16,694 bases of DNA from a virus. The position numbers and the translations under genes were made by a program. Below are positions 980 to 16,694 of this stretch, piece after piece (position 1 is the first letter of the stretch; each line of letters starts with the position of its first letter). The notes beneath the pieces are model-generated. The model had not been told where the DNA came from, searched no databases, and saw nothing but the letters and a program-made list of their open reading frames with translations. The stretch lies in IMG/VR virus record IMGVR_UViG_3300045988_130311. The stretch is one strand, 5' to 3'.

Positions 980-1050
980 CCATGTACGGCTGTGGCGGAC
1001 TGTGGCAGGCAATGGCGCGCGCCACTCGCCACGGCCATGCGTGAGCGCGC

Positions 1051-3853: not shown

Positions 3854-4188
3854 TGTGCCGCATGAACGACGAACAGTTGTTGGCCCAGCTTCGCGACGAA
3901 GTGGGCGTGCCAAGCGGTGACGATGAACGACTAACCGCGAAGCTGGCCGCCGCCAAGGCGTATGTGGCAAGCGCCGTGGGCGCGGCATCCATCAAGGACG
4001 AAGTGCTGGCCGATTGCATTGTGTCGTGCGCGGCGGATCTGTACAACAGCCGCGACGCCCGGCTGGGCGTCATGGACGTGGGCGATTCGACTGTGGAACC
4101 GTTCAGGATCTCCACCGACCCGCTCCGCTCGGTCTGGCCGAAACTCAAGGCGGCGGGCGTGAACACCGGCGGGCTGGTGATCGCATGA
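3850..4188 (+). CDS. Head-tail adaptor / connector (gp6-like)
   Basis: The ATG overlaps the MCP stop (ATGA). The 112-aa product sits in the canonical position after the MCP. Sequence such as EQLLAQLRDEVGVPSGDDERL...AKAYV is typical of head-tail connector proteins. An alternative start is at 3862. Confidence 0.7.
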   Translation: MMCRMNDEQLLAQLRDEVGVPSGDDERLTAKLAAAKAYVASAVGAASIKDEVLADCIVSCAADLYNSRDARLGVMDVGDSTVEPFRISTDPLRSVWPKLKAAGVNTGGLVIA

Positions 4189-4553
4189 ACATCCAGGAAC
4201 AACGCGCCGCCCTCATGGACACGCTCGTCGACATGCTCGACGGGCTCGTGAGCAGTATCAGCATCGACGCCCAGCTGGTGCGCCCGGCCGCCGGCAAGGT
4301 GGCCGTGTTCATCGAACCGCCGGCCGTGGAATGGCCATCATGGGGCCCGCCAGAACCGGTCTGGACGTTGGACGTCATCGCCGGCACGCCGGCCACACAG
4401 CCATCCGCAGTCGATGACATCCTCACAGCGCTCGACCGGCTCGCCGAACGTGGCCTGAACCTGCAAAAGGCCACGCCCGCAACATGGAACCTCGCAGGAG
4501 CCGGCACGCTGGCGGCCTACCAGGTCACATTGAACGCTTTGGAAACCGAATAA
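4185..4553 (+). CDS. Head-tail joining protein (family not recognised)
   Basis: ATGA overlap with the upstream gene, 122 aa, high GC3, located between the adaptor and the major tail protein. Confidence 0.7.
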   Translation: MNIQEQRAALMDTLVDMLDGLVSSISIDAQLVRPAAGKVAVFIEPPAVEWPSWGPPEPVWTLDVIAGTPATQPSAVDDILTALDRLAERGLNLQKATPATWNLAGAGTLAAYQVTLNALETE

Positions 4554-4573
4554 GACAAGGAAAGGAAAAAATC

Positions 4574-4987
4574 ATGGCTGGAAAGATCCGCACGCTCGGA
4601 CCAGGCATCTTCAAAATCACCGACACCGAAAACGGCAGGGACTTCAGCGCCGACCTGACCAAAGCGCAGCTGAACCCGTCGAACAGCAGCGACGACCCGA
4701 CCACCTACCTCGACGGATCAGAGGAGACGAACACCACGACCACATGGACGTTCGAGGGCACCGTCGGCGACGACTTCAGCGAGGACGGTCTGGCCGTCTG
4801 GCTCTTCGACCACAAGGGCGAGACGCTGCCGGCCCAGTTCGTTCCGAACAATACCGGCAAGATCCAGTGGACCTTCAACGTCACCATCGCGCCAATCGCC
4901 ATCGGCGGCGACGTCAAATCGAAGAACACGAACGATCTGAGCTTCGCCGTCACGAACGTCGCCCACGCACCGTACACGGGCAAGTGA
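4574..4987 (+). CDS. Major tail (tube) protein
   Basis: Strong RBS (AAGGAAAGGAAAAAATC ATG) after a short intergenic gap. The 137-aa product has LGPGIFKI...DFSA...IGGDVKSKNT motifs like small actinophage tail tube proteins. Confidence 0.7.
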   Translation: MAGKIRTLGPGIFKITDTENGRDFSADLTKAQLNPSNSSDDPTTYLDGSEETNTTTTWTFEGTVGDDFSEDGLAVWLFDHKGETLPAQFVPNNTGKIQWTFNVTIAPIAIGGDVKSKNTNDLSFAVTNVAHAPYTGK

Positions 4988-5370
4988 TGGCCGGCAAGGC
5001 ATTGATGGTCGTCGGCCAGAAACGCTTCGTTCAGACGATGCGCGCGGTCGGCGCGGACATGGACGACCTGAAGGAAGTGAACCGCGAGGCGGCAGAGATA
5101 GCGCTGCCAGCGGTCCGCAACCTCGCGCCGCGCGGCAAGACCGGCAGGTTGGCCGGCAGCCTGCGTGTCGGAGCGACGAAACGCGCCGGCGTCATCCGCG
5201 CCGGCCGCAAGGCCGTGCCATACGCGGGCCCAATCAATTACGGCTGGCCGAAACGGCACATCCGGCCACGGCTCTTCGTCAACAACGGTGTCGCTTCCAC
5301 CGAGAGCCAATGGCAAAAGGTCTACAAGGACTTCATCGACAAGACACTGAAGCAAGTGAAAGGAAAATAA
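4987..5370 (+). CDS. HK97 gp10-family head-tail/tail-completion protein
   Basis: ATG overlaps the upstream stop. The motif APRGKTGRLAGSLRV...VPYAGPINYG resembles the HK97 gp10 family signature (P..TG.L..S...YA..vefG). Confidence 0.65.
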   Translation: MAGKALMVVGQKRFVQTMRAVGADMDDLKEVNREAAEIALPAVRNLAPRGKTGRLAGSLRVGATKRAGVIRAGRKAVPYAGPINYGWPKRHIRPRLFVNNGVASTESQWQKVYKDFIDKTLKQVKGK

Positions 5371-5642
5371 TGGCAACCACGAGAATCACCTACACGGACG
5401 GTACCAGCGAACTCGTGCCGATCACGATGCGCGCGACCTGCAAGGCCGAGGCGCACGCCATCGACGCGGGCTGGGGGCCAATCACCCAGTCACCCGTCCG
5501 TTCCGGCGCTTACGCGGCCTACGCGGCCCTGCGCATGGCCGGCCGCAGCATGCCTGATTTCGAGCATTGGCTGGACACCGTGGCGTCCTTCGACCTTGCG
5601 GCAGCGACGGAGGAACCGGAAGAGGGAAACCCTACGGACTAG
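5370..5642 (+). CDS. Tail assembly chaperone (G-like, zero-frame product)
   Basis: 90-aa ORF directly upstream of the tape measure gene. It ends just after a GGGAAAC slippery heptamer. Confidence 0.8.
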   Translation: MATTRITYTDGTSELVPITMRATCKAEAHAIDAGWGPITQSPVRSGAYAAYAALRMAGRSMPDFEHWLDTVASFDLAAATEEPEEGNPTD

Positions 5643-5800
5643 CCGCGTGGCCCCAAGACTCGCTCGGCCGTCTCTCGTTCCTCCTGGCAAGCCGTTTCGG
5701 CGGCACGCCATGGCAGTGGAGGAACGAGGCCGACGAATTGGATTGGGGCACCGGACTGGCCGAACTGCTCAAGGAAGCGGAAGAAACACGGAAGGAGTGA
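5370..5800 (+). CDS. Tail assembly chaperone, -1 frameshift fusion (G-T-like)
   Basis: The -1 frame is open from the slip site (5624-5630) to 5800 and ends 4 nt before the tape measure start. This matches the conserved G/GT architecture. Confidence 0.7.
5624..5630 (+). other. Programmed -1 ribosomal frameshift slippery heptamer G_GGA_AAC
   Basis: The X_XXY_YYZ pattern lies in the zero frame of the chaperone gene, 4 codons before its stop. Confidence 0.7.
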
Positions 5801-5803
5801 GCC

Positions 5804-7669
5804 ATGGCGCACAGCGCGATCATGAGCGTGCGCATCACCGGCAACGCCGATGATGCCGTCAAGGCGTTCGAGAAGACCACCACGAAGGCGGCCGCTTTCG
5901 GCAGCGCCATCGGCGGATTGGCCGTCAAGGGCGTGACCGCGCTGTGGGACACCATCAAGGGCTTCGCCGGCGACGTGGTGAACATGTCGGACAGCACCGA
6001 CAAGTTCATGAACACCATGAGCTTCGCCGGCATCGACACCAAAGCCGTGCAGGCAGCCACGAAGGAAACCCGCAAATACGCCGACGCCACCGTGTACGGC
6101 CTCGATGACATCCAGAACACCACCGCGCAGCTGGCGGCAAACGGCATCGGCAACTACATGGAACTGACCGAGGCGGCCGGCAACCTCAACGCGGTGGCCG
6201 GAGGCAACGCCGACAGTTTCAAAAGCGTGGCCATGGTCCTCACCCAGACCGCCGGCGCCGGAAAACTCACCACGGAGAACTGGAACCAGCTTGCCGACGC
6301 CATCCCTGGCGCGTCCGGCAAACTCCAGGAGGCGCTGCTGAAGAACGGCGCGTACACGGGCAACTTCCGCGACGCCATGGCCAAGGGCGAGATCACGGCC
6401 GACGAGTTCAACCAGGCGCTGCTGGACCTCGGCATGACCGACGTGGCGAAACAGGCCGCGACATCGACCAGCACCATCGAGGGAGCCATGGGAAACCTCG
6501 AAGCCGCCGTGGTCGGTGGTCTGACCGACGCGTTCAACCTGTTCAAACCTGCCGTGACCGGCGGCATCAACGCGGCATCAACTGCCGTGACCAGTCTGGC
6601 CACCACCGGCGTGCAGGGATTGCAGACGTTCTTCGGCCAGGTCAAGGACACCGGAGCGTTCACCGCCTTGCAGTCGGCCGCGCAGTCGGTCGGCGGCGGC
6701 CTGCAATCATTGTGGAACGGCATCATGGCGGTCGTGAATGCGATGACCGGAGGACAGCCGGCGGGAACCGCGTTCGGCAACGTGCTCAACACCGTCGCCA
6801 CGGCCGCGCAGACGGTCGGCGGCTGGCTGAAGACCGCCGGCGACTGGATCAGTCGAAACACGGATCTCGTGACCCCCCTCGTGGCCGCGATCGGCGGAGC
6901 CGTGGCGGCCGTCACCGCCGTCACCACCGCCATGCGGATTGCCGCCGTCGCTCAAGCGCTGCTCAACGCGGTCATGGCCGCGAACCCGATCATGCTGGTC
7001 ATCACGCTCATCGCAGCGCTCGTGGCCGGACTCACCTACTTCTTCACCTGCACCAACACCGGCAAGGCCGTCTGGTCGAGCTTCACCGGCTTCCTTGGCT
7101 CCTGCGTGCAGGGCATCATCGGCTTCTTCTCCGGTCTCGGCTCCACCATCGTCAACATCTTCAACTCGGCAGCGAACGGGGCAAGGAACGCATGGAACGG
7201 CGTAGTCGGCTGGTTCCGCGGACTGCCAAGCTCCATAGCCGGGTTCTTCGGCAACGCCGGCAGCATCCTGTACAACGCCGGCGCAAGCATCATCAGCGGT
7301 TTCCTCAACGGCCTCAAATCGATGTGGAGCAACGTGACCGGCTGGATCAGCGGCATCGGCGACTGGATCAAGGCCCACAAGGGCCCGATCAGCTACGACC
7401 GTCGCCTGCTCATCCCCGCCGGCCAGGCCATCATGACCGGTTTCGCACAGGGCCTCAACACCGGGTTCGACAGCAACGTCGAGACCGCTATCAGCCGCGC
7501 CAACCGCAGACTAGCGGCCATGCCCCTCAACCTCTCCGCCCAGGGCAACACGGCCACGCCAGTGGTCAACACCTGGAACGTGGAGATCAACGGCGAGGTC
7601 ATCGACAAGGACGGCACCGCCAAGGCCATCAAACGGCTTCTGGCCGACTACGACGCAAGGAGGTCGTGA
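5804..7669 (+). CDS. Tape measure protein
   Basis: 621 aa with RBS GGAAGGAG. The N-terminus resembles the TP901-type tape measure domain (ADATVYGLDDIQNTTAQLAANG, NWNQLADAIPGASGKL). The central part is a hydrophobic Gly/Ala-rich segment. Confidence 0.9.
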   Translation: MAHSAIMSVRITGNADDAVKAFEKTTTKAAAFGSAIGGLAVKGVTALWDTIKGFAGDVVNMSDSTDKFMNTMSFAGIDTKAVQAATKETRKYADATVYGLDDIQNTTAQLAANGIGNYMELTEAAGNLNAVAGGNADSFKSVAMVLTQTAGAGKLTTENWNQLADAIPGASGKLQEALLKNGAYTGNFRDAMAKGEITADEFNQALLDLGMTDVAKQAATSTSTIEGAMGNLEAAVVGGLTDAFNLFKPAVTGGINAASTAVTSLATTGVQGLQTFFGQVKDTGAFTALQSAAQSVGGGLQSLWNGIMAVVNAMTGGQPAGTAFGNVLNTVATAAQTVGGWLKTAGDWISRNTDLVTPLVAAIGGAVAAVTAVTTAMRIAAVAQALLNAVMAANPIMLVITLIAALVAGLTYFFTCTNTGKAVWSSFTGFLGSCVQGIIGFFSGLGSTIVNIFNSAANGARNAWNGVVGWFRGLPSSIAGFFGNAGSILYNAGASIISGFLNGLKSMWSNVTGWISGIGDWIKAHKGPISYDRRLLIPAGQAIMTGFAQGLNTGFDSNVETAISRANRRLAAMPLNLSAQGNTATPVVNTWNVEINGEVIDKDGTAKAIKRLLADYDARRS

Positions 7670-9183
7670 TGCAGCAATGCTTCATGTTCATCGACACCGG
7701 CAGCGGCTGGACGCCGGTGAACGATTCCGCCAAGGACATCGCGGCCCTAGACTCGTTCACCATCGATTGGGGCAGCGACAGCATCGACGAACAACCGGAA
7801 CCCATCGTGATGTCGTTCACCCTGCGCGACCGGACCGGACGGCTGGCCGGCCAGGCATTGACATTGGCCGGCATGAAAGTGGTCGTGCAGTTCTCCAACC
7901 AGCCGCGATGGATGGACCTGACGCCAGCGATGGGCAGCTGGCAAGATCTGCGCATCCCCATCGACTCGCTACACAGGGCGTATTCCCCAGTCTCTCCGGA
8001 CTCGCCGGACTCGCCGGCCATGACGATGTTCGCCGGCACCGTCTCCACCGGCGGCAGCGTCGAACCGGCCAGCGGCGGCGGGTGGCTGCTCAAACTCTCC
8101 GCCACATCGAGGATGGCCGTGTGGAAGCGCCTGCAATCCCAAGGACCGACAGACACGGCCGCGAAATGGAACGGCGCGCACTGGATAGGCACGCCGGCCG
8201 CACGCCTCGCGGAGATGAACCGCCGGGCATCGGCGCAGGGAGCTCCGGAAGCACAACTGGACGGCCTCGCCCTGCCATCAAGCGTCACGCCATACACGCC
8301 ATCCGACCATCCATCGCAGCTCGACCTGCTGCACCGGCTCACCGCCGGCCCACGACTCCCGCAATGGCATGAGGTCTACGACGGCGCTACATCAAGCCTC
8401 CGGCCATTGTTCCTCGCCGACCCGATCGCCGTGCACCTGTCGTCGGACGGCCGTCTCAGCATCCTCACCGGCGGAGAGACACGTCACGCGCTCTCGGCGT
8501 CCGACATCGAGGCATCGACCGATCTGAGCATCCCCGAACCATTGACTCAGGTCGTCATCAACGCGAAACGCGTCAAATCGGACAACGGCAAGCTCTCGTT
8601 CGATGACGTCGAGATCACGATGGGAGACCAGAACCGTCTGCCCTCCCAATTGACCGCCACGCAGAAGAGCCTCACCCTCGATTCCGACATGCTCGCAATC
8701 GATGACTCAGGCGGCGTGTGGAACAGCGGGGCCACGTCGAACGTCAGCGACACCGACCGCGCGAACGTCGCGCAATGGCTCGAATCGCACGACCTGCGAA
8801 TGGTCCCGGAGACAGTGACGTTCAACAGCACGCGAATCGACCCGGCGCGCCTGCCATGGCTGTACAAGGCGAGCCCGTCCGGCCCGTTCATCATCGTCAA
8901 GGCCAAGGCGTCGGCACTGACCGGCTCAGATGGCCGGCCTGCTTTCACCGGCCCCATCACGACCATCGGCGGGACGCTCTCATACCGGTGGCGCAACGGC
9001 AAGCCGACGCTCACCCAGGAAGCGACGCTGGCCGCGCTCCGGCCGCTGCTGACGAAACGGATCACATGGACCGACCTGCCCACCCTCAGCTGGCAGCAGC
9101 TCGACCTGCACATCTGCGACCTCTCGATGATCCAGATCATCGACACTTCTTCGCCCACCGCCGAAAAGGAAGGAACACAATGA
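7669..9183 (+). CDS. Minor tail protein (tail tip / distal tail candidate)
   Basis: AAGGAGG lies upstream and the ATG overlaps the tape measure stop. 504 aa, located directly after the tape measure gene. The part of track ORF 6712..9183 upstream of 7669 is Arg-rich out-of-frame junk overlapping the tape measure gene. Confidence 0.8.
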   Translation: MQQCFMFIDTGSGWTPVNDSAKDIAALDSFTIDWGSDSIDEQPEPIVMSFTLRDRTGRLAGQALTLAGMKVVVQFSNQPRWMDLTPAMGSWQDLRIPIDSLHRAYSPVSPDSPDSPAMTMFAGTVSTGGSVEPASGGGWLLKLSATSRMAVWKRLQSQGPTDTAAKWNGAHWIGTPAARLAEMNRRASAQGAPEAQLDGLALPSSVTPYTPSDHPSQLDLLHRLTAGPRLPQWHEVYDGATSSLRPLFLADPIAVHLSSDGRLSILTGGETRHALSASDIEASTDLSIPEPLTQVVINAKRVKSDNGKLSFDDVEITMGDQNRLPSQLTATQKSLTLDSDMLAIDDSGGVWNSGATSNVSDTDRANVAQWLESHDLRMVPETVTFNSTRIDPARLPWLYKASPSGPFIIVKAKASALTGSDGRPAFTGPITTIGGTLSYRWRNGKPTLTQEATLAALRPLLTKRITWTDLPTLSWQQLDLHICDLSMIQIIDTSSPTAEKEGTQ

Positions 9184-9803
9184 CAGCAACAACACCAATC
9201 TACGGCCTCTCGTATCCCGAAGGCTCCGACCTCGTATCAACCGCGCCGGACTCGTTCAAGAGCATGGCCGACACGTTCGAGAAGGCGCTTGACCAAGTGG
9301 ACCGGAGGACCACGCCGGAAGGCGTCAAACCGGCCGTCGCGACCACCCTCGAAGCCCTTCGGCAGATCACCGGCGTCATCGGCCAAACAGGTTTCGTCAC
9401 CGGCGGCAACGACGACAACGGCCCATATGTGTGGGACGGCGCGCAATGGGTCAAGACCAGAACCGCCGACATGCCATGGAACGGCACTTGGAGACTCAAC
9501 TCGCGGATTTACACCGGACGCAAATGGGTGGACGGCCGCCGCATCTGCATGCAGGTCCGAGAATACAAGAACCTGACCAACAACTCGCGCACCCCACCGG
9601 GCTTCAGCATCTACAGCCTACTGGACTACCGCGTCATCACCCAAGGAAAAGGCGGCTCGCCCCAACCGTACCTCGCCACCGACACCTACTGGCATTCAGA
9701 AGTCACGGTCACACCATCCGAGATCATCGTACGCAAAGGCGCATCGAACACGAGCGCGCTCAACGTCTGGATCGTCTACATCTACACGGAGCCCGACGCG
9801 TGA
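9180..9803 (+). CDS. Minor tail protein (receptor-binding candidate)
   Basis: ATGA overlap with the upstream gene, 207 aa. It is the last structural gene before the lysis cassette. The N-terminus PIYGLSYPEGSDL resembles actinophage minor tail proteins. Confidence 0.75.
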   Translation: MTATTPIYGLSYPEGSDLVSTAPDSFKSMADTFEKALDQVDRRTTPEGVKPAVATTLEALRQITGVIGQTGFVTGGNDDNGPYVWDGAQWVKTRTADMPWNGTWRLNSRIYTGRKWVDGRRICMQVREYKNLTNNSRTPPGFSIYSLLDYRVITQGKGGSPQPYLATDTYWHSEVTVTPSEIIVRKGASNTSALNVWIVYIYTEPDA

Positions 9804-10027
9804 CGGATCTCATCATCGCCATCGTCGGCGCAGTCGGCGCGGTCGTCGGCGCACTGGTCTCCACCCTCTCGGCCGCCGCGAAGAACAAGATGGAAGCCTA
9901 CCGGCTCGCGCAGAAGATGCAGGCCGACAACCAACGCCTCTGGCAATGGAACCGGCAACTCATCGACCACATCTACAGGCGCACCCCACCACCGCCGCCG
10001 GAGCCGCCGGAAGACCTGTTCGACTAA
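9800..10027 (+). CDS. Small membrane protein (one N-terminal TM helix, coiled region, Pro-rich tail); lysis-associated candidate
   Basis: GTG start overlaps the upstream stop (GTGA). The hydrophobic LIIAIVGAVGAVVGALVSTL segment is followed by an amphipathic region and PPPPPEPPE. Confidence 0.6.
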   Translation: MTDLIIAIVGAVGAVVGALVSTLSAAAKNKMEAYRLAQKMQADNQRLWQWNRQLIDHIYRRTPPPPPEPPEDLFD

Positions 10028-10045
10028 AGGAAGGAAAGGAACCAC

Positions 10046-10843
10046 ATGAGCGGCATCATCTGGAAAGGAAGCCCGAACCATTACGTTGGCCGCAACGGCT
10101 ACGGCGTCACGCACATCACGCTGCACATCATGGTTGGATACCTCGCCGGCACCGATTCCACGTTCGCCAACCAGTCGAGCCGAGCATCGGCCCACTACGG
10201 CGTCGGCGCGACCGGAGAGATCCACCAATACGTGTCGGAACTCGACGGCAGCTATTCGGACGCGAACTACGCATCGAATAATTCGACCATCAGCATCGAG
10301 CACGAGGGCGGCATGGCCGACGGCGCGGTATGCACCCAGGAGTGCATCGACGCAAGCGCCAGACTGTGCGCCGACATCGCGAGAAGGTACGGATGGAAAA
10401 AACTGTGGCACGACGGCCTGAAAGGCAATGTGTGGCTGCACAGGGAGATTCCAGGCACCGACCACCTCGCCTGCCCCGATCTCGCGCCCAACGGACTGCC
10501 ATACAAGCAGATCATCGACCAAGCAAACCGAATCCTTGAAGGAGGAACCATGTCCAACGCAGGCGACGAAGTATGGAACTGGGCATACAAGCCCAACGGA
10601 AAGAACGCCACACCGGGCGGCAACATGTACAATCTGCTCACCTACGAGCTGCCGCAGCGCATCCGCGACAGCATCATGCAATACAGCTACAAGGGCTCGG
10701 CACCGGGCGGCAACATCTACAACACCATCTGCTTCGAGATCCCCGGAATGCTGAAACAGCTCACCAAGACCCTTGAAGCGCAGCAGAAGCAGATCAGCGA
10801 ATTGTCCGAAAAAATCAGCAAGCTGGAAGGGACCGCGAAATGA
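10046..10843 (+). CDS. Endolysin, N-acetylmuramoyl-L-alanine amidase (amidase_2/PGRP-like) with C-terminal repeats
   Basis: RBS AAGGAAGGAAAGGAAC. The N-terminus (SPNHY.GRNGYGVTHITLHIMVG..., SAHYGV, ISIEHEG, HREIPGTDHLACP) is typical of zinc amidase endolysins. Two PGGN(M/I)YN repeats and a coiled coil lie at the C-terminus. Confidence 0.85.
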   Translation: MSGIIWKGSPNHYVGRNGYGVTHITLHIMVGYLAGTDSTFANQSSRASAHYGVGATGEIHQYVSELDGSYSDANYASNNSTISIEHEGGMADGAVCTQECIDASARLCADIARRYGWKKLWHDGLKGNVWLHREIPGTDHLACPDLAPNGLPYKQIIDQANRILEGGTMSNAGDEVWNWAYKPNGKNATPGGNMYNLLTYELPQRIRDSIMQYSYKGSAPGGNIYNTICFEIPGMLKQLTKTLEAQQKQISELSEKISKLEGTAK

Positions 10844-11190
10844 CCGACACGACGGAAAACCGACTCCCGACGGCCAACACAACGGAGGATGACGCAATGC
10901 CCGTCTCGGCGCAGATCATGGCCGCCGCCGATGGCAACGCCGAGGCAACGACGCCGAGAATCGACAGCGGCACAATATCCAGATTCCTCGTGCTGCTCCT
11001 TGCGCTTGTCAACCAGGGACTGACCATGTTCGGCCATCCGGTGCTCAACATCGATGACACGACCATCACGCAGCTCGTGAGCCTCGCATGGACAGCCGGC
11101 AGCGCCATCTGGTGCTACTGGAAGGACAACGACGTGACCGCGAAAGCCCGCGTCAAAAAGGCGAGGCTGTCGGCACGTCACGCGGCCTAG
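10840..11190 (+). CDS. Holin (two TM helices, basic C-terminus)
   Basis: ATGA overlap with the endolysin stop. The TM segments are ISRFLVLLLALVNQGL and ITQLVSLAWTAGSAIWCYW. The charged tail is KDNDVTAKARVKKARL. Confidence 0.7.
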   Translation: MTDTTENRLPTANTTEDDAMPVSAQIMAAADGNAEATTPRIDSGTISRFLVLLLALVNQGLTMFGHPVLNIDDTTITQLVSLAWTAGSAIWCYWKDNDVTAKARVKKARLSARHAA

Positions 11191-12014
11191 ATAAGCCGGA
11201 CGGCCGCCGTGGCTTCTCTCAGACGGCCGTCCGGCATCGCAACGTAATGCTCCGTGGTCTCAACCGATTCATGGCCGAGCAGTTCGGCGACCACGAACAG
11301 GTCGTGTGTGGCGGCGTAGGCCGTGGTGGCGAACCGGTGGCGCAGCGTGTGCGCGGCGTATCCGTCCGGCAGCAGATGACTGATGTGGTCACCGATATAG
11401 GACTCCTCCACATGGCCGACGAACCGGCCAGGGAACAGGTAGCCACGCGCGTCCATGATGATGTCGGCCAAATCATCCGGCAACGGCACTATGCGCTGCT
11501 TGTCGCCTTTGCCGCGCACGATCAATGACCGGCCGGCGCTGTCGGCCACGACGTCATCGCTGTGGACCCGCGCGATCTCGCCACGCCGCAGTCCGCACTC
11601 CGCACCGAGCCGGATCATGAGTTTTTCCGACGACGTGGCCTTCTCCATCGCCGCAGCGATGTAACGGTCCGGGCATGGTCTGGGATGCGCGTGCGGCTTC
11701 TTCACGCGTGGCACGTCCAGGCTCGGGTCGTCGCTTCTCCGGCCGCTTTTGTGCAACCATCGGAAGAACGACGATATGGTGTTCCTGTACGCTTTGCGCG
11801 TCTCGGGTTTCCATTGCTGCCGTGCGAACGTCTGCACGATCTGCTCCGTGGTCACGTCTTTGGGGCCTGATGGCATGAGCAGCGCCGCGAGATGGACCAT
11901 CTTGTATCGTCGGCTTTTGATTGTCTGTGCTGATAGGCCGGCCGCCTTGAGGGTGTCAGTCCACCCTTCGATGCTTTTGCGCCATGGGACCGGTGCGCTG
12001 ATCTTGTTTCTCAT
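11187..12014 (-). CDS. int: Tyrosine recombinase / phage integrase (XerC/D-like, 275 aa)
   Basis: The catalytic signature is visible: GLRRGEI (Arg), KGDKQR (Lys), HTLRHRF (His-x-x-Arg), LLGHES (His), TTEHY (Tyr). Its stop overlaps the holin stop (CTAG). Confidence 0.92.
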   Translation of the reverse strand: MRNKISAPVPWRKSIEGWTDTLKAAGLSAQTIKSRRYKMVHLAALLMPSGPKDVTTEQIVQTFARQQWKPETRKAYRNTISSFFRWLHKSGRRSDDPSLDVPRVKKPHAHPRPCPDRYIAAAMEKATSSEKLMIRLGAECGLRRGEIARVHSDDVVADSAGRSLIVRGKGDKQRIVPLPDDLADIIMDARGYLFPGRFVGHVEESYIGDHISHLLPDGYAAHTLRHRFATTAYAATHDLFVVAELLGHESVETTEHYVAMPDGRLREATAAVRLI

Positions 12015-12018
12015 GATC

Positions 12019-12042
12019 CATCATGCACCCCATCATGCACCC
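12019..12042. repeat. Tandem 12-bp direct repeat CATCATGCACCC x2, 4 nt upstream of the int start (reads GGGTGCATGATG x2 on the int strand)
   Basis: Two exact adjacent copies read directly from the sequence. Confidence 0.9.
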
Positions 12043-12101
12043 CTGGCTTTAAGCGGTTAAAATGAGCTCGGATAAGCTCAGAAGCCCCATGGATTTGAAC
12101 C

Positions 12102-12635
12102 TTGGACCTCTGGTATCTAGAGGTCTATGACCCCGGCGTGGCCCACACGTTGCTGCTCGCCGGCAAGCAGGGGCTGACCAACATTCGCGTGGCCCAGGTC
12201 AATGCGCCCGAGCTGTTCAAGGTGACCGCGGCCGGCACCGTGGCCGAGGTATGGACCTTCTTCCCCGACCCTTGGCCCAAGAAGAAGCACCACAAGCGCC
12301 GCATCGTGCAGAAGGCCATGGCCGGCGACATTCATCGCGCGCTGGTCACAGACGGCGTCTGGCGTATCGCCACCGACATCGAGGACTATGCCCTGCACGT
12401 GCACGAGGTGATGGACGGCCTCGATGGCTGGAAGAACCTGGGCAGCATAACCGTCAGCCTCCCGCTGGAGCACGTGGGCAAGGGCAACGCCGATCTGGCC
12501 GCCGACATGCCGCACGCCGACTTCACCGAATCCGAGCGGTTCGAGGGCCGCGTGCTCACCAACTTCGAAAAGAAGGGCCTGGCCGCCGGCCGCGTGATTC
12601 ACGACTTTACCTATCAGGCCGTTACCTTGAACTAA
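12102..12635 (+). CDS. trmB: tRNA (guanine46-N7)-methyltransferase TrmB, 3-prime fragment lacking the N-terminal SAM-binding motif
   Basis: YLEVYDPGV...GLTNIRV...[17 protein letters not shown]...RIATD...FEKKG aligns with the E. coli TrmB motifs GIEVHSPGV, LSNLRV, FFPDPWHKARHNKRRIV, ATD and FEQRG. The GxGxG region is absent. An in-frame stop at about 12075 limits any upstream extension. The frame is intact with high GC3. Confidence 0.85.
12105..12125. other. Candidate attP core: perfect inverted repeat GACCTCT-GGTATCT-AGAGGTC (7-7-7)
   Basis: Perfect 7-bp inverted arms around a 7-bp spacer, about 90 bp upstream of int. It lies exactly where the trmB-homologous coding sequence begins. This geometry matches tyrosine-recombinase core sites. 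Confidence 0.45.
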
Positions 12636-12661
12636 TCACGACACGCCGAAATGCCGTCGAT

Positions 12662-12916
12662 TTGCATAACCGAACAACCTCCCGTAAAGTAATTCAAGAA
12701 CAGCGTACGATCGCCAAGCAGGTTCGCGGCAAGTTGCGTGCAAATCACGTCACGCAACGAGAGCTAGCGGACTCTGTGGGAATGAGCGAACAAGCGTTGT
12801 CGAACAAGCTTCGCGGCCTGAAGAACTTCACACTGCGTGATGTGTCGCGTATAGCCGACTTCTTCGACGTTTCCACCGATTTCGTGCTTGGCCGAGAGCC
12901 ATTGGAGGTGAAGTGA
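12662..12916 (+). CDS. XRE-family helix-turn-helix transcriptional regulator (Cro/CI-like)
   Basis: HTH signature IAKQVRGKLRANHVTQRELADSVGMSEQALSNKLRG. No in-frame ATG lies upstream of the HTH outside trmB, so a TTG at 12662 is proposed as the start. No clear SD, so the start is uncertain. Confidence 0.65.
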   Translation: MHNRTTSRKVIQEQRTIAKQVRGKLRANHVTQRELADSVGMSEQALSNKLRGLKNFTLRDVSRIADFFDVSTDFVLGREPLEVK

Positions 12917-13098
12917 TGCTGATTCATGACGCTTCGGGTGCTGTTGCCGTCGTATCGGCTGAATCGGTGAGGATTGTCGGCGAGGGTTGCATTGTCCTTA
13001 ATGCGCGCGCCGTGTACATCCATAATCAGGCGCTGACGTCAGAGCAGGCCGCGATTGTCAAGCGTGGTGTCATGGCCACGCTCGACGATCCAGCGGCG

Positions 13099-13341
13099 TT
13101 AGAAGATCTGCATGGGAAGCACGACGTCGCCAGCGTCGATCTGCCACCACGGGACGGCCTTGGGGTTGATGGTGATGGCGTGGATGCTCATGTCGGGAAA
13201 CCTGACGGTCTGGATGAAGCTGTCACCGGACTTCAGACGTTCGGAGAGTTCACTGACCGTGGAGGCCGTCGCGCCGGTGATGGTAAGCGGCGTGGTCGTT
13301 CCCAGGTAAAGGGCGAAGTCGAATGTGGTTTCGTCGCTCAT
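13099..13341 (-). CDS. Hypothetical 80-aa protein; besides int, the only gene on the minus strand
   Basis: Strong RBS on the minus strand (GAAGGAAGGAAGAACA ATG). GC3 is high in this frame and low (T-rich) in the overlapping plus-strand ORF. Confidence 0.7.
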   Translation of the reverse strand: MSDETTFDFALYLGTTTPLTITGATASTVSELSERLKSGDSFIQTVRFPDMSIHAITINPKAVPWWQIDAGDVVLPMQIF

Positions 13342-13448
13342 TGTTCTTCCTTCCTTCGTTGTTTGAAAGGTTTGGTTTGTGCGATTACAAGCCTATCGCT
13401 GCGGAGGAAGGAGCCTAACCGTCCATCCATGAATCAAGGAGCAGTGAA

Positions 13449-13685
13449 ATGAGCGTTTTCAATCCGGAATGCACCAGCAATTACTTCCAGGTGCTGGACA
13501 TCGACCCGTCGGAATGCACCGGCGGCAATCCCTACCGCTTCGCCTGCCGCATCAAGGTGGGCGGACGATCGTTCGGGTTCGATGGTTTGGACATGGGCGA
13601 CCTTCAGACGATGAAGGGCGCGATCAACAAGGCGATGACGCACGCGCGTCGAGCTCGCCGTGAATGGGAAGGAACCCAGGAATGA
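13449..13685 (+). CDS. Hypothetical 78-aa protein
   Basis: RBS AAGGAGCAGTGAA ATG. The downstream gene is translationally coupled to it. Confidence 0.65.
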   Translation: MSVFNPECTSNYFQVLDIDPSECTGGNPYRFACRIKVGGRSFGFDGLDMGDLQTMKGAINKAMTHARRARREWEGTQE

Positions 13686-13840
13686 GCGTCACAGTCAAAC
13701 GTGTGGACAGGAAAAGCAGGCAACGTTTTTACGAGCTGATCGTTGAGACGGAAGAAGGCATCACCGTGCGCGTCCCGTTCAACGGTTACGAGCTTGACGA
13801 TCTTGAGAAACAGATCGACCGATGCTTCAACGAGGATTGA
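13682..13840 (+). CDS. Hypothetical 52-aa protein
   Basis: ATGA overlap with the upstream stop. Translation is MSVTVKRVDRKSRQRFYELIVETEEGITVRVPFNGYELDDLEKQIDRCFNED. It is below the ORF-track size cut-off. Confidence 0.5.
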   Translation: MSVTVKRVDRKSRQRFYELIVETEEGITVRVPFNGYELDDLEKQIDRCFNED

Positions 13841-13841
13841 C

Positions 13842-13955
13842 GTGAAACGTTTCATCAAGACCGTTCTTCTGATTCTGCTCAGCCCGTTCGTGTTCCTCAT
13901 GTTCGGGCTTGTCCTCGCCATTGTCCGGTTTGGTGATTTCCTCACCGACGACTGA
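13842..13955 (+). CDS. Hypothetical 37-aa single-pass membrane peptide
   Basis: GTG start 1 nt after the upstream stop. The hydrophobic core is TVLLILLSPFVFLMFGLVLAIV. Confidence 0.4.
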   Translation: MKRFIKTVLLILLSPFVFLMFGLVLAIVRFGDFLTDD

Positions 13956-14344
13956 CGGCATCCGATAACTTCATAGCCCTTGACCCAGCCGAAGGTCGGT
14001 TGCCGGGTAGGCGTGATAAAGCACCCGGCCGCGCCTTGCCCAGCGCGTTACAAACACGCCCGGAATGCCGGGCGGTTACCACGGCCCCAGCGGGGGAGCT
14101 ATGCGGGTGTACACAGATCGCTTCACGGCGTCTTGTTCGGGCGCAACTGGGGACCATCGCCGGCATACGTGCCGGGCTGTGCGGCGAGACCTTGCGCGCG
14201 GCTTCGGCCGCTGACCTATGCGACGGCGCGGCTCCGTTACGAAGCAACCTTGCATGGCGAACCCTAATCCGGAAAACACTTGAGCAATCTTGTGTTTTCC
14301 GGGCTGGGTTCCCCGCTCTAACGCCCCACCACCCGAAGGGCACA

Positions 14345-14387
14345 TCATCCACAATTCTTATCCACTTATCCACAGTTCTTATCCACA
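14345..14387 (+). promoter_or_regulatory. Array of four same-orientation DnaA-box-like repeats (TCATCCACA, TTATCCACT, TTATCCACA, TTATCCACA); candidate origin iterons or operator
   Basis: Read directly at 14345-14353, 14358-14366, 14366-14374 and 14379-14387. Two copies match the E. coli DnaA box consensus TTATCCACA exactly. The longer unit TTCTTATCCAC occurs twice. The array ends 22 nt before the ATG at 14409. Confidence 0.6.
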
Positions 14388-14408
14388 ATATGAAACGAGG
14401 TTCGAGAC

Positions 14409-14750
14409 ATGGGTTATTCGGTTGATTACAAGCCAACACGCCGACGTGCCAAGAGGACGGTGCCGAAGAACAAGGCCCAACGCACGAAGGACATCAAGAA
14501 CGCCATTCGATGGAATATCAGGCAATTGGAGCATGACACTGTTGGAGCGGACACCATTGCGCGTTCCCTTGCCATCAGTATGCTTCGACTGAACAAGATC
14601 GCGCCGACGGCCGACCCTAGCGGCGACCATGTGATGCAGCAGCTTATCAGCGACGGTATCTTGGGCAAGACCGAGAGGCGCGGAAGTGTGCAGGTGTTCG
14701 ACCGTGCCGAGTTGTTGACATCGCTCAAGGCTTGGGTTGGTGTGCTGTGA
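14409..14750 (+). CDS. Hypothetical DNA-binding protein (basic N-terminus plus HTH/winged-helix-like region)
   Basis: GAGG lies 8 nt upstream of the ATG. The N-terminus RRRAKRTVPKNKAQRTK is basic. The segments ADTIARSLAISMLRLNKI and QQLISDGILGKTERRGSVQVF look like HTH/wing elements. This is the first gene after the repeat array. Confidence 0.7.
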   Translation: MGYSVDYKPTRRRAKRTVPKNKAQRTKDIKNAIRWNIRQLEHDTVGADTIARSLAISMLRLNKIAPTADPSGDHVMQQLISDGILGKTERRGSVQVFDRAELLTSLKAWVGVL

Positions 14751-14956
14751 ACCCGCGCGCGAAGCTCACGGCCAAACAGGCGGCCCTATATCTGGGCGTG
14801 AGCGAAAGCCTGTTGCGCAAGTGGCGCGGCGAACATTACGGCCCGGTGTTCTACCGGCCCACGGACGCGCCCAACTGCCCCGTGCTGTACGAGTTGTCGG
14901 ACTTGGACATGTTCGTAGCGCAGCGCAAACGCAAGGCGGCCCAGAGTGCCGCGTAG
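14747..14956 (+). CDS. Excisionase/AlpA/MerR-type HTH DNA-binding protein
   Basis: GTGA overlap with the upstream gene. LTAKQAALYLGVSESLLRKWR...GP.F......VLYELSDLDMF matches the excisionase-family HTH pattern. Confidence 0.7.
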   Translation: MNPRAKLTAKQAALYLGVSESLLRKWRGEHYGPVFYRPTDAPNCPVLYELSDLDMFVAQRKRKAAQSAA

Positions 14957-15668
14957 ACAAGTAGTCGCCCCGTCAATCCGTTCGGCCGAGATAGCGGCGT
15001 GGGGCAACGACTGTTGGTTGGAATTGCCCGGCTGTACGAAGGTGGGCACCGAAGACGATCACATAGTGCCACACGCGCACGGCGGCAAGGACACCGTGCC
15101 GAACCTACGCCGCGCGTGCAAGCACTGCAACGCCTCGCGGCAAGACCGCGTGCTGTATGGCTATGGCTGCCGCTTGCACATGATCGTATGCCCGCCCGGC
15201 TCATGCGACCGGGAGGCCGTGGACTACATAGCCCAGCACGCGAAGCCAAGCGACCCGGTTGTGTCGTATGCTTCGCTGGCCGCCGCCATGCGCGTGGATG
15301 AAGCGGACATGGAGCAGCGGCGGGCCGCGGCTATGGCATGGTCTGCCGCCTACCGCCAGTTCGCCAAGAGCCGCGCGCCGTTGGACGTGTGGCTGGTGCG
15401 CACCATACCAGCCAGCCGCAAGCACCCGCAGATGCTGGCCGAGTGGATAGCGCTGGACTACGACATACAGGTGCTGGACCCAGGCTATGCCGAGAGCATG
15501 GCACGGGCACGTAACGACATGCACCGGCAGCTGGTGCGCCAGTGGTACGCCCTCCACCTGTCACAAGAGACGATAGACGCGAGGCAAGCGGCCCGCCGCC
15601 ATCGACTCGCGGCCCTTGGCTTGCGTTCCATGCCATCTTCGGTGCCTTCATCGCGCCCGGAATGGTGA
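14946..15668 (+). CDS. HNH endonuclease fused to a ~170-aa C-terminal domain of unknown function
   Basis: HNH motif DHIVPHAHGGKDTVPNLRRACKHCNASR in the first ~70 aa. GTG start overlaps the upstream gene. It is located just before the small terminase gene, as in HNH-dependent cos phages. Confidence 0.8.
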   Translation: MPRRQVVAPSIRSAEIAAWGNDCWLELPGCTKVGTEDDHIVPHAHGGKDTVPNLRRACKHCNASRQDRVLYGYGCRLHMIVCPPGSCDREAVDYIAQHAKPSDPVVSYASLAAAMRVDEADMEQRRAAAMAWSAAYRQFAKSRAPLDVWLVRTIPASRKHPQMLAEWIALDYDIQVLDPGYAESMARARNDMHRQLVRQWYALHLSQETIDARQAARRHRLAALGLRSMPSSVPSSRPEW

Positions 15669-15682
15669 TTTTTTAAACTCAC

Positions 15683-15714
15683 GGCGCCGGGAAAGACCCC
15701 GCGCCCAGTTTTTT
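15683..15714 (+). terminator. Rho-independent terminator after the HNH gene
   Basis: GC-rich stem GGCGCCGGG / CCCCGCGCC (one C-C mismatch), loop AAAGA, followed by CAG and six T (15709-15714). Confidence 0.65.
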
Positions 15715-15739
15715 CTCCCCCCAACACGGGAGAAAAAAC
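15708..15739. repeat. Perfect 12-bp inverted repeat GTTTTTTCTCCC (8-nt loop) GGGAGAAAAAAC
   Basis: Read directly. It shares the T-run with the terminator and lies in the HNH-terS intergenic region, where cos sites of HNH phages usually map. Confidence 0.8.
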
Positions 15740-15785
15740 GGCACGAAAACGTTGGAACATCAAGGAAAAGAAAGGATACGGATAA

Positions 15786-16100
15786 ATGAGCCAAAACACG
15801 TTCGACATTTTCGACGATACCGCCGGCCGGCACGTCGGGCAACAGGAAAAGGCCACCCGTCGGCTGATCGAGAGCCTTACCGAGCGTTCGGGCGGCGACC
15901 TTGACCCGTTCGCCACCACGCTATGCGCCAGCCTGTTGTCCTTGGCCCAGAACATCGACACACAGCGCAACGCCGGCAAGGAGATCAGCCGCAACATGAA
16001 CACGTACCTGGACAACGTGCAGCGCCTTCAGGACATGTACCCGCCGGAACCGAAGGTGGACGAAGACGTGGCCGCCTACTTGGCCGAGGCGAAGGCATGA
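15786..16100 (+). CDS. terS: Terminase small subunit (assigned by position)
   Basis: 104-aa ORF whose stop overlaps the terL ATG (ATGA). RBS-like GAAAGGA lies upstream. No diagnostic motif was recognised. Confidence 0.55.
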   Translation: MSQNTFDIFDDTAGRHVGQQEKATRRLIESLTERSGGDLDPFATTLCASLLSLAQNIDTQRNAGKEISRNMNTYLDNVQRLQDMYPPEPKVDEDVAAYLAEAKA

Positions 16101-16694
16101 CCAGGGAACCGCCGCTTATGCGAGCCGGAACGCGCCGCGACCCATCGCGCCGCACAGACGGCAACGTGGTGGCGCGCACTGCCGAACTGTTGGGCAAACC
16201 GTTGTTGCCTTGGCAACGGTACGTCGCGGACGTGGCCGGCGAACTGGACGACGCCACAGGCGCGTACCGGTATGACACCATCGTGCTTACCACGCCCCGC
16301 CAGTGCGGCAAAAGCACGTTGATAGACACCGAGGACACGCGCAACGCCCAGCTTGGACGCGATAGGAAGATCTATTACCTTGCCCAGACCGGCAAGGACG
16401 CCGAACAGCATTTCAAGGAATACGTGAAGCAACTGAGGGACAGCCGGCTGGCACCGCTGGCCCTGAAGCCACGACTGAGCAACGGCGGCATGGAACAGCG
16501 GTTCGCCAACGGCAGCTTCATACGCCCTTTGGCCGTCACGAAGGTGGCCGGCCACGGCGTGCAGATGGACAAATTCACCCTGGACGAGGCTTTTAGCCTG
16601 ACCGAAGAGGCCGGCTATATGATCTTGGACGGCTTGGGGCCGACCATGAACACCCGCTTAAGGTTCACCGGCGTGCAACCTCAAATGTGGATTA
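16097..16694 (+). CDS. terL: Terminase large subunit, N-terminal ATPase part (continues through the circle junction into 120..979)
   Basis: ATG at 16097 overlaps the upstream stop (ATGA). Translation contains Walker A-like TTPRQCGKST and Walker B-like KFTLDEA. There is no stop before the window end, and the frame matches ORF 44..979 once 16576 is mapped to 1. The joined length is 1458 nt (485 aa). Confidence 0.9.
   Translation, partial: MTREPPLMRAGTRRDPSRRTDGNVVARTAELLGKPLLPWQRYVADVAGELDDATGAYRYDTIVLTTPRQCGKSTLIDTEDTRNAQLGRDRKIYYLAQTGKDAEQHFKEYVKQLRDSRLAPLALKPRLSNGGMEQRFANGSFIRPLAVTKVAGHGVQMDKFTLDEAFSLTEEAGYMILDGLGPTMNTRLRFTGVQPQMWI
16576..16694. repeat. Terminal overlap, copy 2 (identical to 1-119)
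   Basis: Same 119-nt string as the window start. The reading frame of the ORF from 16097 continues into ORF 44..979. Confidence 0.95.

What the first reader, a model, noticed from the sequence alone, without database searches (positions are those of the whole stretch)
14345..14387. Four tandem DnaA-box-like repeats in front of the early operon of a replication-gene-less phage
Within 43 bp there are four same-orientation copies of TTATCCAC-type 9-mers. Two are exact matches to the DnaA box consensus TTATCCACA, and an 11-bp unit TTCTTATCCAC occurs twice. The array sits 22 nt upstream of a small basic HTH-like gene (14409) and follows a relatively AT-richer hairpin segment (about 14262-14302). 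The genome encodes no recognisable initiator, primase, helicase or polymerase. The array could therefore be an origin that recruits host DnaA. It could also be a DnaA-titrating or DnaA-regulated promoter, since it overlaps weak -35/-10-like hexamers TTATCC and TATGAA. A third option is an iteron/operator set for the adjacent 113-aa protein. None of these is standard annotation for a phage of this type.
Basis: partly seen in the sequence, partly recalled or inferred. Interest (0 to 1): 0.72.

Follow-up and report, generated by a model that had tools for sequence, protein, structure and literature searches.

The report
Host DnaA boxes in phage leader
Four same-strand copies of the host's DnaA-binding motif sit just before the first late gene of a tiny Bifidobacterium phage, behind a large, previously undescribed structured RNA; related phages keep the motif there only in some lineages, so it looks like an optional host-DnaA control point rather than the phage's replication origin.

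Summary
Four + strand 9-mers (TCATCCACA, TTATCCACT, TTATCCACA, TTATCCACA; 14345-14387) are the only DnaA-box matches in a 16,575-bp circular Bifidobacterium temperate siphovirus that has no recognisable replication genes.

Across 149 related loci, the same motif recurs in 1-6 copies in at least four divergent clades. It is always on the + strand and always between a conserved non-coding block and the ribosome-binding site of the 113-aa gene. In four lineages the last box ends exactly 21 nt before the ATG. Flanks and inter-box spacers drift while the boxes are kept. The variants match the box types predicted in the B. longum oriC. So the boxes are under selection.

About half of the distinct spacers, covering many clades, have no boxes, and those clades also lack replication genes. 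Box presence tracks no phage protein (gp113, Xis-like HTH, XRE, small early ORFs). I found no unwinding element.

The feature that is conserved in every relative is a roughly 380-nt structured + strand RNA (13963-14342) with strong covariation, a terminator-like hairpin and no Rfam match.

Best reading: an accessory host-DnaA binding module in the transcribed leader of the late operon. It is not the origin, and it is not an operator for the 113-aa protein.

The parts
14345..14353 (+). Box 1, TCATCCACA (8/9 to the DnaA-box consensus)
   Evidence: The same first box is found in clade X1 (L158) with a different N4 spacer.
14358..14366 (+). Box 2, TTATCCACT. It overlaps box 3 by one base (8-bp pitch).
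   Evidence: The doublet TTATCCACTTATCCACA also occurs in about 20 unrelated phage lineages.
14366..14374 (+). Box 3, TTATCCACA (exact; B. longum oriC type A)
   Evidence: PMC2430713.
14379..14387 (+). Box 4, TTATCCACA (exact). It ends 21 nt before the ATG.
   Evidence: The 21-nt distance recurs in four lineages whose 21-mers are unrelated.
14388..14408 (+). 21-nt segment carrying the ribosome-binding site (ACGAGGT, 14395-14401)
   Evidence: The GAAWCGAGGT module is conserved upstream of the ATG in most relatives.
13963..14342 (+). Conserved structured non-coding RNA element of about 380 nt, the putative leader of the late operon
   Evidence: Present in all relatives, down to 24% gp113 identity. 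Non-coding: no 3-periodicity, 185 of 197 indels out of frame, stops in all frames. No Rfam match.
13976..14012 (+). RNA 5' domain: two-tier stem-loop P1/P1a
   Evidence: Each lineage folded independently gives the same architecture from different sequences, e.g. UCGGG/CCCG against UCGAG/CUCG, and GCCC/GGGC against GUGC/GCAC.
14058..14073 (+). RNA hairpin S2 (GCCCGG-AAUG-CCGGGC)
   Evidence: 18 distinct sequences; 98.1% of cells paired against 64% in shuffles; 5 of 6 pairs change on both sides; covariation score 0.92 against 0.27; the G.U pairs are valid only on the + strand.
14198..14211 (+). RNA hairpin S6 (GCGGC-UUCG-GCCGC)
   Evidence: Compensatory variants GCGGGC/GCCCGC, GCAGGC/GCCUGC and GCCGC/GCGGC.
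14269..14302 (+). Terminator-like hairpin inside the RNA
   Evidence: Perfect 11-bp arms. The homologous hairpin is called as a + strand intrinsic terminator in L069, L073 and L136, but not in the window itself.
14307..14339 (+). Invariant C-rich 3' block GGTTCCCCGCTCTAAC..CACCACCCGAAGG
   Evidence: The most conserved stretch of the whole locus. RNAalifold pairs it with the central GGGCG / GGG / GACC blocks, but those pairs never vary, so the pairing is unproven.
14409..14750 (+). gp113, first gene of the late/packaging operon: winged helix with a basic disordered N-terminal tail
   Evidence: 132 homologues, no Pfam or PHROG family. AlphaFold2 pLDDT 79. Foldseek PDB matches are weak winged-helix hits with E of 0.1 or more.
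14747..14956 (+). Xis/AlpA-like HTH gene (HTH_17)
   Evidence: Its variants do not track box presence.

Best explanation
The four 9-mers are genuine DnaA boxes of the Bifidobacterium host, kept by selection as an accessory module in the leader of the phage's late (packaging, structural, lysis) operon. Inferred transcript layout: transcription starts upstream, near 13960. It runs through a conserved structured RNA of about 380 nt that contains a terminator-like hairpin and a C-rich 3' block. It then crosses a short A-rich, G-poor linker before the ribosome-binding site of gp113. In this lineage the linker carries four same-strand boxes. Host DnaA bound there would modulate how much transcription reaches the late genes. 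This could work as an orientation-dependent block to RNA polymerase, or as a DnaA-RNA polymerase contact of the kind reported for lambda pR. Either way, late-gene expression would be tied to the state of the host replication initiator. Shown: the motif, its match to the host's annotated box types, its recurrence, its fixed strand and position, its independence from phage proteins, and the structured RNA. Inferred: that DnaA is the binder, that the linker is transcribed, and the direction of the effect. It is not the replication origin of the family.
For: Motif and chance. Host box types A-D in the B. longum oriC equal the array variants (PMC2430713). In both the host oriC and the phage arrays the variable positions include 3, 4, 5 and 9. 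Recurrence: among 149 loci found through gp113 or through the RNA core, independently of the boxes, 26 of 47 distinct spacers carry 1-5 boxes within one mismatch. All 71 boxes are on the + strand and none on the - strand. Box+ lineages fall in at least four separate clades of the gp113 tree. A shared box-N4-box module has a free N4 (ATTC, AGAC, ATAG, ATCG) and unalignable flanks, which is the footprint of a binding site. The last box ends 21 nt before the ATG in four lineages. No phage protein co-varies with the boxes: gp113, Xis-like HTH, XRE and early ORFs. Leader context: structured RNA with covariation; terminator-like hairpin; spacers as short as 28-31 nt and no sigma-70-like promoter. 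Precedents: DnaA stimulates lambda pR-driven transcription (PMC8203912); a conserved set of 8 DnaA boxes lies in a non-replicative control region of T5-like phages (bioRxiv 10.1101/866236); DnaA boxes lie in the hisL leader (PMC10989985). From my own knowledge: DnaA-dnaA box complexes block transcribing RNA polymerase in one orientation (Schaefer and Messer, 1988-89).
Against: There is no binding or transcript data. 21 of 47 distinct spacers lack boxes, so the module is dispensable and its benefit is unknown. Copy number varies from 2 to 6 within one clade, as expected for slippage-prone repeats. A fixed 21-nt distance to a start codon is not an obvious requirement for a DNA roadblock, and it hints at an RNA-level or ribosome-linked role. 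The 8-bp pitch of the overlapping doublet may not allow two DnaA domains to bind at once. The host's box types come from an annotation, not from footprinting.
Confidence: 0.45

Rival explanations
1. DnaA-dependent replication origin. Host DnaA bound to the array opens nearby DNA and loads the host helicase, which would explain how a phage without replication genes replicates.
For: Exact host-type boxes in tandem. No replication genes anywhere in the genome or in relatives. This is the largest non-coding region of the genome. Transcription through the leader could activate an origin as at ori-lambda. From my own knowledge: ColE1/pMB1 origins combine a structured pre-primer RNA with a DnaA box.
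Against: 21 of 47 distinct spacers, spanning many clades that equally lack replication genes, have no DnaA-like site. Sites within one mismatch number 0, and sites within two mismatches are not enriched (P = 0.16). So the family's replication cannot depend on the boxes. There is no AT-rich unwinding element; the lowest GC in an 80-bp window is 40%, and that window is the array itself. The last box lies 21 nt from a start codon inside a probable 5' UTR. The RNA's 3' block is C-rich, which disfavours a stable R-loop (inference).
Confidence: 0.12
2. RNA-level or near-neutral element. The linker only has to be an unstructured, G-poor stretch upstream of the Shine-Dalgarno sequence (a ribosome standby or Rho-loading region). 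UUAUCCAC units expanded by slippage, and the DnaA-box likeness is incidental or secondary.
For: All lineages, with or without boxes, have A-rich, G-poor spacers: pooled G is 0.18 against 0.30 genome-wide, and GC skew is strongly negative at 14300-14380. Copy number is polymorphic. Other lineages carry other short repeats there, such as ATCAATC, CAGACCRACTC and ACATCAAY. Strand specificity and a fixed distance to the AUG are natural for an RNA element.
Against: The same 9-mer, identical to the host's perfect DnaA box, recurs in at least four divergent clades with otherwise unalignable spacers. Its variants follow the host oriC box spectrum. A composition-only constraint would not hold TCCAC fixed. 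A perfect consensus box on double-stranded DNA should bind DnaA whatever else it does (established knowledge).
Confidence: 0.15
3. DnaA sponge. After the phage genome is amplified, the arrays titrate host DnaA (datA-like) to arrest host initiation or to sense copy number, with no direct effect on the adjacent operon.
For: High-affinity consensus boxes in tandem. Clusters that include the same overlapping doublet occur in many unrelated phages in large intergenic regions.
Against: Titration needs no fixed strand, no fixed place and no 21-nt spacing to a start codon. Lineages with a single box would titrate little.
Confidence: 0.08
4. Operator or iteron set for a phage-encoded DNA-binding protein: the 113-aa winged-helix protein, the Xis/Cox-like HTH or the XRE regulator.
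For: Tandem direct repeats next to genes for DNA-binding proteins. Cox/Xis-type proteins bind such arrays (own knowledge). gp113 models as a winged helix.
Against: Box presence does not follow any of these proteins. gp113 at 73-77% identity (L101-105) has no boxes, while gp113 at 39% (L134) has them. Identical Xis variants occur with and without boxes. The XRE of box-less L069 is closely similar to the window's, including the HTH region. The 58-aa and 78-aa early ORFs are absent from, or not specific to, box+ lineages.
Confidence: 0.05

Closest known systems
DnaA boxes acting on transcription: DnaA-stimulated lambda pR / ori-lambda activation, and DnaA-dnaA box transcription blocks in E. coli
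   Same: Consensus DnaA boxes placed inside or just downstream of a transcription unit, in one orientation. They tie phage or operon expression to the host initiator (PMC8203912; the block literature is from my own knowledge).
   Different: Here the boxes sit in a tandem array 21 nt upstream of the first late gene's start codon, after a 380-nt structured leader, in an actinobacterial phage. No binding or effect has been shown.
DnaA-box set in the injection-stop (iss) region of T5-like phages
   Same: A conserved, precisely arranged set of DnaA boxes in a non-coding phage control region, argued not to be an origin (bioRxiv 10.1101/866236).
   Different: The T5 boxes are paired with 3-bp gaps inside inverted repeats in a terminal repeat. 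Here they are direct repeats at 13- and 8-bp pitch in an operon leader, and they are optional across the family.
oriC-type and plasmid origins with tandem DnaA boxes (oriC, P1 oriR, pSC101, the ColE1/pMB1 DnaA site)
   Same: The same 9-mer, clustered and same-strand. The ColE1 analogy adds a long structured RNA upstream.
   Different: No unwinding element, no iterons or Rep protein, not conserved across the family, and located in a 5' UTR.
Phage late-operon leaders with a terminator (lambda pR'-6S-tR'/Q; HK022 put RNA)
   Same: A structured or terminated leader transcript immediately upstream of the late operon of a temperate siphovirus. A cis-acting RNA would suit a genome with almost no regulatory genes.
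   Different: The RNA here is far larger (about 380 nt), has no sequence or Rfam relationship to put or 6S, and its function is untested.
Small actinobacteriophages without recognisable replication genes (e.g. Microbacterium cluster EE, Arthrobacter cluster AN; own knowledge)
   Same: 15-17-kb siphoviruses, a protease-capsid fusion, an HNH next to the terminase, and no replication module.
   Different: This family is temperate (integrase, XRE regulators, trmB or tRNA att sites) and infects Bifidobacterium. No DNA similarity to any GenBank phage record.

Membership tests
DnaA box (host DnaA recognition site) | 9-mer matching TTATCCACA / TTWTNCACA | tested here: met
   Two exact sites and two one-mismatch sites.
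DnaA box (host DnaA recognition site) | Matches the box types used in the host's own oriC | tested here: met
   B. longum oriC types A-G (PMC2430713). Family arrays use A, and B/C/D-like variants.
DnaA box (host DnaA recognition site) | Conserved against a diverging background (evidence of selection) | tested here: met
   Recurs in at least 4 clades with free N4 spacers and flanks; strand ratio 71:0.
DnaA box (host DnaA recognition site) | Bound by DnaA | not testable with these tools
   Needs EMSA, footprinting or ChIP.
DnaA-dependent replication origin | Cluster of DnaA boxes | tested here: met
   Four boxes in 43 bp.
DnaA-dependent replication origin | Adjacent AT-rich DNA-unwinding element | tested here: not met
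   Minimum GC is 40% in 80-bp windows, and that window is the array itself. The flanks are 49-56% GC.
DnaA-dependent replication origin | Conserved in relatives that share the same replication strategy | tested here: not met
   21 of 47 distinct spacers have no box, and box-less spacers show no enrichment of degenerate boxes.
DnaA-dependent replication origin | Supports autonomous replication | not testable with these tools
   Needs cloning in a suicide vector, or marker-frequency analysis.
Iteron or operator array of a phage-encoded protein | Repeat sequence co-varies with the cognate binding protein | tested here: not met
   No co-variation with gp113, Xis-like HTH, XRE or early ORFs.
Sigma-70-type promoter overlapped by the boxes | -35 and -10 hexamers at 16-18 bp spacing | tested here: not met
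   No site in 12600-14800 or in relatives. Spacers can be as short as 28-31 nt.
Structured cis-regulatory leader RNA / ncRNA | Conserved helices supported by compensatory changes | tested here: met
   S2: 98% paired, covariation score 0.92 against 0.27 in shuffles. P1/P1a and S6.
Structured cis-regulatory leader RNA / ncRNA | Not protein-coding | tested here: met
   No periodicity, out-of-frame indels, stops in all frames.
Structured cis-regulatory leader RNA / ncRNA | Transcribed, with defined ends | not testable with these tools
   Needs RNA-seq, 5'-RACE or Term-seq. The strand is inferred from G.U pairs. The alifold energy only slightly favours the + strand.
Any Rfam 15 family | Covariance-model match | tested here: not met
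   No hit with E of 1 or less in the window or in six divergent loci, apart from tRNAs at prophage ends.
ColE1-type RNA-primed origin | Long structured pre-primer RNA ending at the origin, with a DnaA or primosome site downstream | tested here: inconclusive
   The layout is superficially similar. No antisense RNA or RNase H site can be assessed, and the C-rich RNA 3' block is unfavourable for an R-loop (inference).

The most novel reading that the evidence does not exclude
The structured leader RNA and the DnaA boxes together form a fully host-dependent replication and late-switch module. Transcription of the roughly 380-nt RNA would activate or prime DNA synthesis, as in ColE1 or ori-lambda. 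In some lineages, DnaA bound to the downstream boxes would load the host helicase. This would let a 16.6-kb temperate phage dispense with all replication genes.
Probability: 0.08. Interest if true: 0.85.

Novelty: new variant of a known kind. Interest (0 to 1): 0.55.

Why it matters
These 16-17-kb elements recur in the metagenome-derived viral contigs and protein clusters searched here, and they are prophages of Bifidobacterium, a key genus of the infant gut. If host DnaA gates their late operon, prophage induction or virion production would be wired directly to the host's replication status. That regulatory logic is barely explored outside lambda. Separately, the roughly 380-nt structured RNA is a large candidate RNA family with no Rfam match. 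It sits at the head of the late operon in a family with almost no regulatory proteins and no replication genes. It is therefore the obvious place to look for how these minimal phages switch on late genes, and perhaps how they replicate.

Tried and rejected
1. DNA similarity to GenBank phages, both near and distant: no match.
2. Single-sequence folding of 13946-14408 on either strand: weak z-scores (-1.8 and -0.7), uninformative.
3. Whole-element RNAalifold on MAFFT alignments: only partial structures, and the strand difference is small (-162.8 against -156.8 kcal/mol). Q-INS-i was unavailable. I relied instead on anchored per-hairpin analyses.
4. The first census, based on loci found through gp113 only, suggested that the boxes were confined to one clade plus one outlier. 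The scan with the RNA core overturned this.
5. Degenerate DnaA boxes in box-less spacers: not enriched.
6. Flanking genes of DnaA-box clusters in unrelated phages: all of unknown function, so no general rule emerged.
7. Inverse relation between boxes and terminator U-tracts: my hairpin picker merged the U-tract into an extended stem, so the significant P value is an artefact. By eye, box+ clades X1, X2 and L217 do have U-tracts. Inconclusive.
8. Promoter overlapping the boxes, a leaderless promoter, a LexA box in GAAACGAGGTTCGAG, pairing of AUCCA with the 16S 3' end or with the AUGGGU start region, and a DnaA-trio-type unwinding module: checked by eye and none fits.
9. gp113 fold search: only weak winged-helix matches.
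10. Literature: no description of this family or its leader in the held library.

Full report
**What the window is**

- The first 119 bases repeat at the end, so the window is a circular genome of 16,575 bp.
- The gene map is that of a minimal temperate siphovirus:
  - terL, running across the junction (16097..979)
  - portal, and a protease-major capsid fusion
  - connector, major tail protein, tape measure
  - two tail ORFs with no family match
  - endolysin and holin-like genes
  - a tyrosine integrase on the - strand (11187-12014)
  - a 3' fragment of trmB (12102-12635)
  - an XRE regulator (about 12700-12916), then a few small ORFs with no family match
  - 463 bp without a gene (13946-14408)
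  - gp113 (14409-14750), an Xis/AlpA-like HTH, a 240-aa HNH protein and terS
- Nothing resembles an initiator, helicase, primase or polymerase.
- The host is Bifidobacterium. gp113 homologues are annotated in B. longum and B. reuteri. Prophage copies occur in six further Bifidobacterium species.
- Many homologues sit on contigs of 16-17 kb, so this is a recurrent small element.
- No GenBank phage record is similar at the DNA level.
- A B. reuteri prophage of the family has the same minimal early region, again without replication genes.

**The observation**

- The array is exactly as described: TCATCCACA, TTATCCACT, TTATCCACA and TTATCCACA at 14345, 14358, 14366 and 14379, all on the + strand. 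It is built from a 21-bp duplication.
- These are the only exact TTATCCACA sites in the genome. Simulated genomes carry 0.03 on average and never a cluster of four.
- The B. longum oriC is annotated with box types TTATCCACA, TTGTCCACA, TTTTCCACA, TTACCCACA, TTATCCACC, TTATTCACA and TTATGCACA (PMC2430713). So the motif is the host's own.

**What lies around it**

Aligning the region upstream of gp113 in relatives found through the protein shows that about 380 nt, from CGATAACT (13963) to CACCACCCGAAGG (14339), is conserved in every relative. That holds down to 24% gp113 identity.

The block is not coding:
- Substitutions show no 3-periodicity.
- 185 of 197 indels are out of frame.
- Most relatives have stops in all frames.

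It is a structured RNA on the + strand:
- The hairpin after GUUACAAACAC occurs as 18 different sequences that all keep a 6-7-bp stem. 98.1% of cells are paired, against 64% in shuffles and 32-59% when the partners are slid. Five of the six pairs change on both sides. The covariation score is 0.92 against 0.27.
- Its G.U pairs would be A.C mismatches on the other strand.
- The 5' domain folds into the same two-tier stem-loop in every lineage from different sequences, for example UCGGG/CCCG against UCGAG/CUCG.
- A UUCG-capped hairpin also covaries.

Towards the 3' end there is a hairpin (14269-14302). In relatives the standard scan calls it a + strand intrinsic terminator. An invariant C-rich block follows (14307-14339). 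Rfam 15 has no match for any version.

The box array lies in the short linker between this block and the Shine-Dalgarno sequence of gp113:
- The linker is 28-86 nt long.
- It cannot be aligned between lineages.
- It is A-rich and G-poor everywhere.
- No sigma-70-like promoter is detectable, and in some lineages the whole linker is only about 30 nt.

So gp113 and the late operon are most likely transcribed through the RNA element. This step is an inference.

**Are the boxes conserved?**

A first census of loci found through gp113 suggested that the boxes were limited to the window's clade, with 2-6 copies, plus one outlier. Scanning the viral collection with the RNA's conserved core, which is independent of both gp113 and the boxes, added further lineages and changed that picture.

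Over 149 loci and 47 distinct linkers:
- 26 linkers carry 1-5 boxes within one mismatch of TTATCCACA, and 21 carry none.
- All 71 boxes are on the + strand.

On a gp113 tree the box-bearing lineages form at least four separate groups. They share a box-N4-box module:

| Lineage | Box 1 | N4 | Box 2 |
|---|---|---|---|
| Window | TCATCCACA | ATTC | TTATCCACT |
| L158 group | TCATCCACA | AGAC | TTATCCACT |
| L134 | TTTTCCACA | ATAG | TTGTCCACT |
| L217 | TCGTCCACA | ATCG | TTGTCCACT |

- The N4 and the flanks are free to vary. That is the signature of a binding site under purifying selection.
- The variable positions (2, 3, 4, 5 and 9) largely coincide with those that vary among the host's oriC box types (3, 4, 5 and 9).
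- In four lineages with unrelated downstream sequence, the last box ends exactly 21 nt before the ATG. I cannot explain this.
- The box-less linkers contain no degenerate DnaA boxes beyond chance. They often carry ACATCAAY instead.

**Who binds?**

Box presence does not follow any phage protein:
- gp113: variants at 73-77% identity lack boxes, while a variant at 39% has them.
- Xis-like HTH: identical variants occur with and without boxes, and box-bearing loci carry at least five variants.
- XRE regulator.
- Small early ORFs.

gp113 models as a winged helix with a disordered basic tail, and it has no close structural relative. A host factor is therefore the parsimonious binder, and DnaA is the one host protein known to recognise this sequence.

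**What it does**

The origin reading fails on three counts:
- Comparative: many clades of the same replication-gene-less family have no boxes.
- Anatomical: there is no AT-rich unwinding element.
- Positional: the last box lies 21 nt from a start codon in a probable 5' UTR.

The best-supported reading is an accessory DnaA-binding module in the transcribed leader of the late operon. It would modulate read-through into the late genes. Precedents:
- DnaA stimulation of lambda pR transcription (PMC8203912).
- A conserved non-replicative DnaA-box set in T5-like phages.
- DnaA boxes in the hisL leader.
- From my own knowledge, orientation-dependent blocks of RNA polymerase by DnaA-dnaA box complexes.

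I put this at about 0.45.

An RNA-level or near-neutral role remains possible (0.15). Linker composition, copy-number polymorphism and the fixed distance to the AUG all fit it. The overlapping doublet TTATCCACTTATCCACA also occurs in about 20 unrelated phage lineages, often with more boxes nearby. So DnaA-box clusters in phage genomes are not rare, although their flanking genes gave no functional clue.

**Verdict**

- The DnaA-box identity is supported and strengthened by comparative evidence.
- The origin and gp113-operator interpretations are not supported.
DnaA boxes are an optional, precisely placed add-on to it.

Noticed in passing
window 13963-14342 (+): A conserved structured RNA element of about 380 nt with strong covariation, a terminator-like hairpin and an invariant C-rich 3' block. 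No Rfam 15 match. Present upstream of gp113 in all 149 related loci.
   Followed up: yes
window 14388-14408; L032, L177, L190, L217: In four lineages whose downstream 21-mers are unrelated, the last DnaA box ends exactly 21 nt before the gp113 ATG. All 71 boxes in the family are on the + strand.
   Followed up: partly
window 12102-12635 (+), next to integrase 11187-12014 (-): The phage carries the C-terminal ~177 codons of trmB (tRNA guanine-N7 methyltransferase, PF02390). This suggests that attP lies in the 3' end of the host trmB and that integration rebuilds the gene. Other lineages of the family abut tRNA genes instead (L101, L113, L158).
   Followed up: partly
window 12018-12041: A perfect tandem 12-mer, CCATCATGCACC twice, lies between the integrase start and the trmB fragment. 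It may be an arm-type or regulatory site.
   Followed up: no
window 1-119 and 16576-16694: A 119-bp terminal overlap shows a circular 16,575-bp genome. terL runs across the junction (16097..979).
   Followed up: yes
window 2201-3853 (+): A single 550-aa ORF fuses a head maturation protease to the major capsid protein, as in some very small actinobacteriophages.
   Followed up: partly
window 14946-15668 (+): The HNH protein is unusually long (240 aa). Its C-terminal part matches a PHROG annotated as terminase small subunit. The 117-bp gap before terS (15669-15785) is the likely cos region.
   Followed up: no
window 13976-14012; relatives: The internal loop between P1 and P1a (YGUGA on one strand, UA on the other) is conserved in most lineages and looks K-turn-like.
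   Followed up: no
spacers of L069, L072, L074, L110, L113, L135, L141, L144 and others: Box-less lineages share an ACATCAAY / ATCAATC motif in the linker, sometimes in several copies. The window's first box is embedded in ACATCATCCACA, which suggests a common ancestral motif.
   Followed up: partly
L001, L022, L033, L043, L055, L059, L062, L066 and others: The overlapping doublet TTATCCACTTATCCACA occurs in about 20 unrelated IMG/VR phage lineages (GC 26-71%). It is usually in a large intergenic region, often with 2-6 more DnaA boxes nearby. The flanking genes are of unknown function.
   Followed up: partly
window 12913-13945: The early region is mosaic. The 58-aa ORF (13664-13840) and its neighbours occur in the window clade and a few recombinants but not in other clades, while the 78-aa ORF (13449-13685) is widespread. 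None has a family match.
   Followed up: partly
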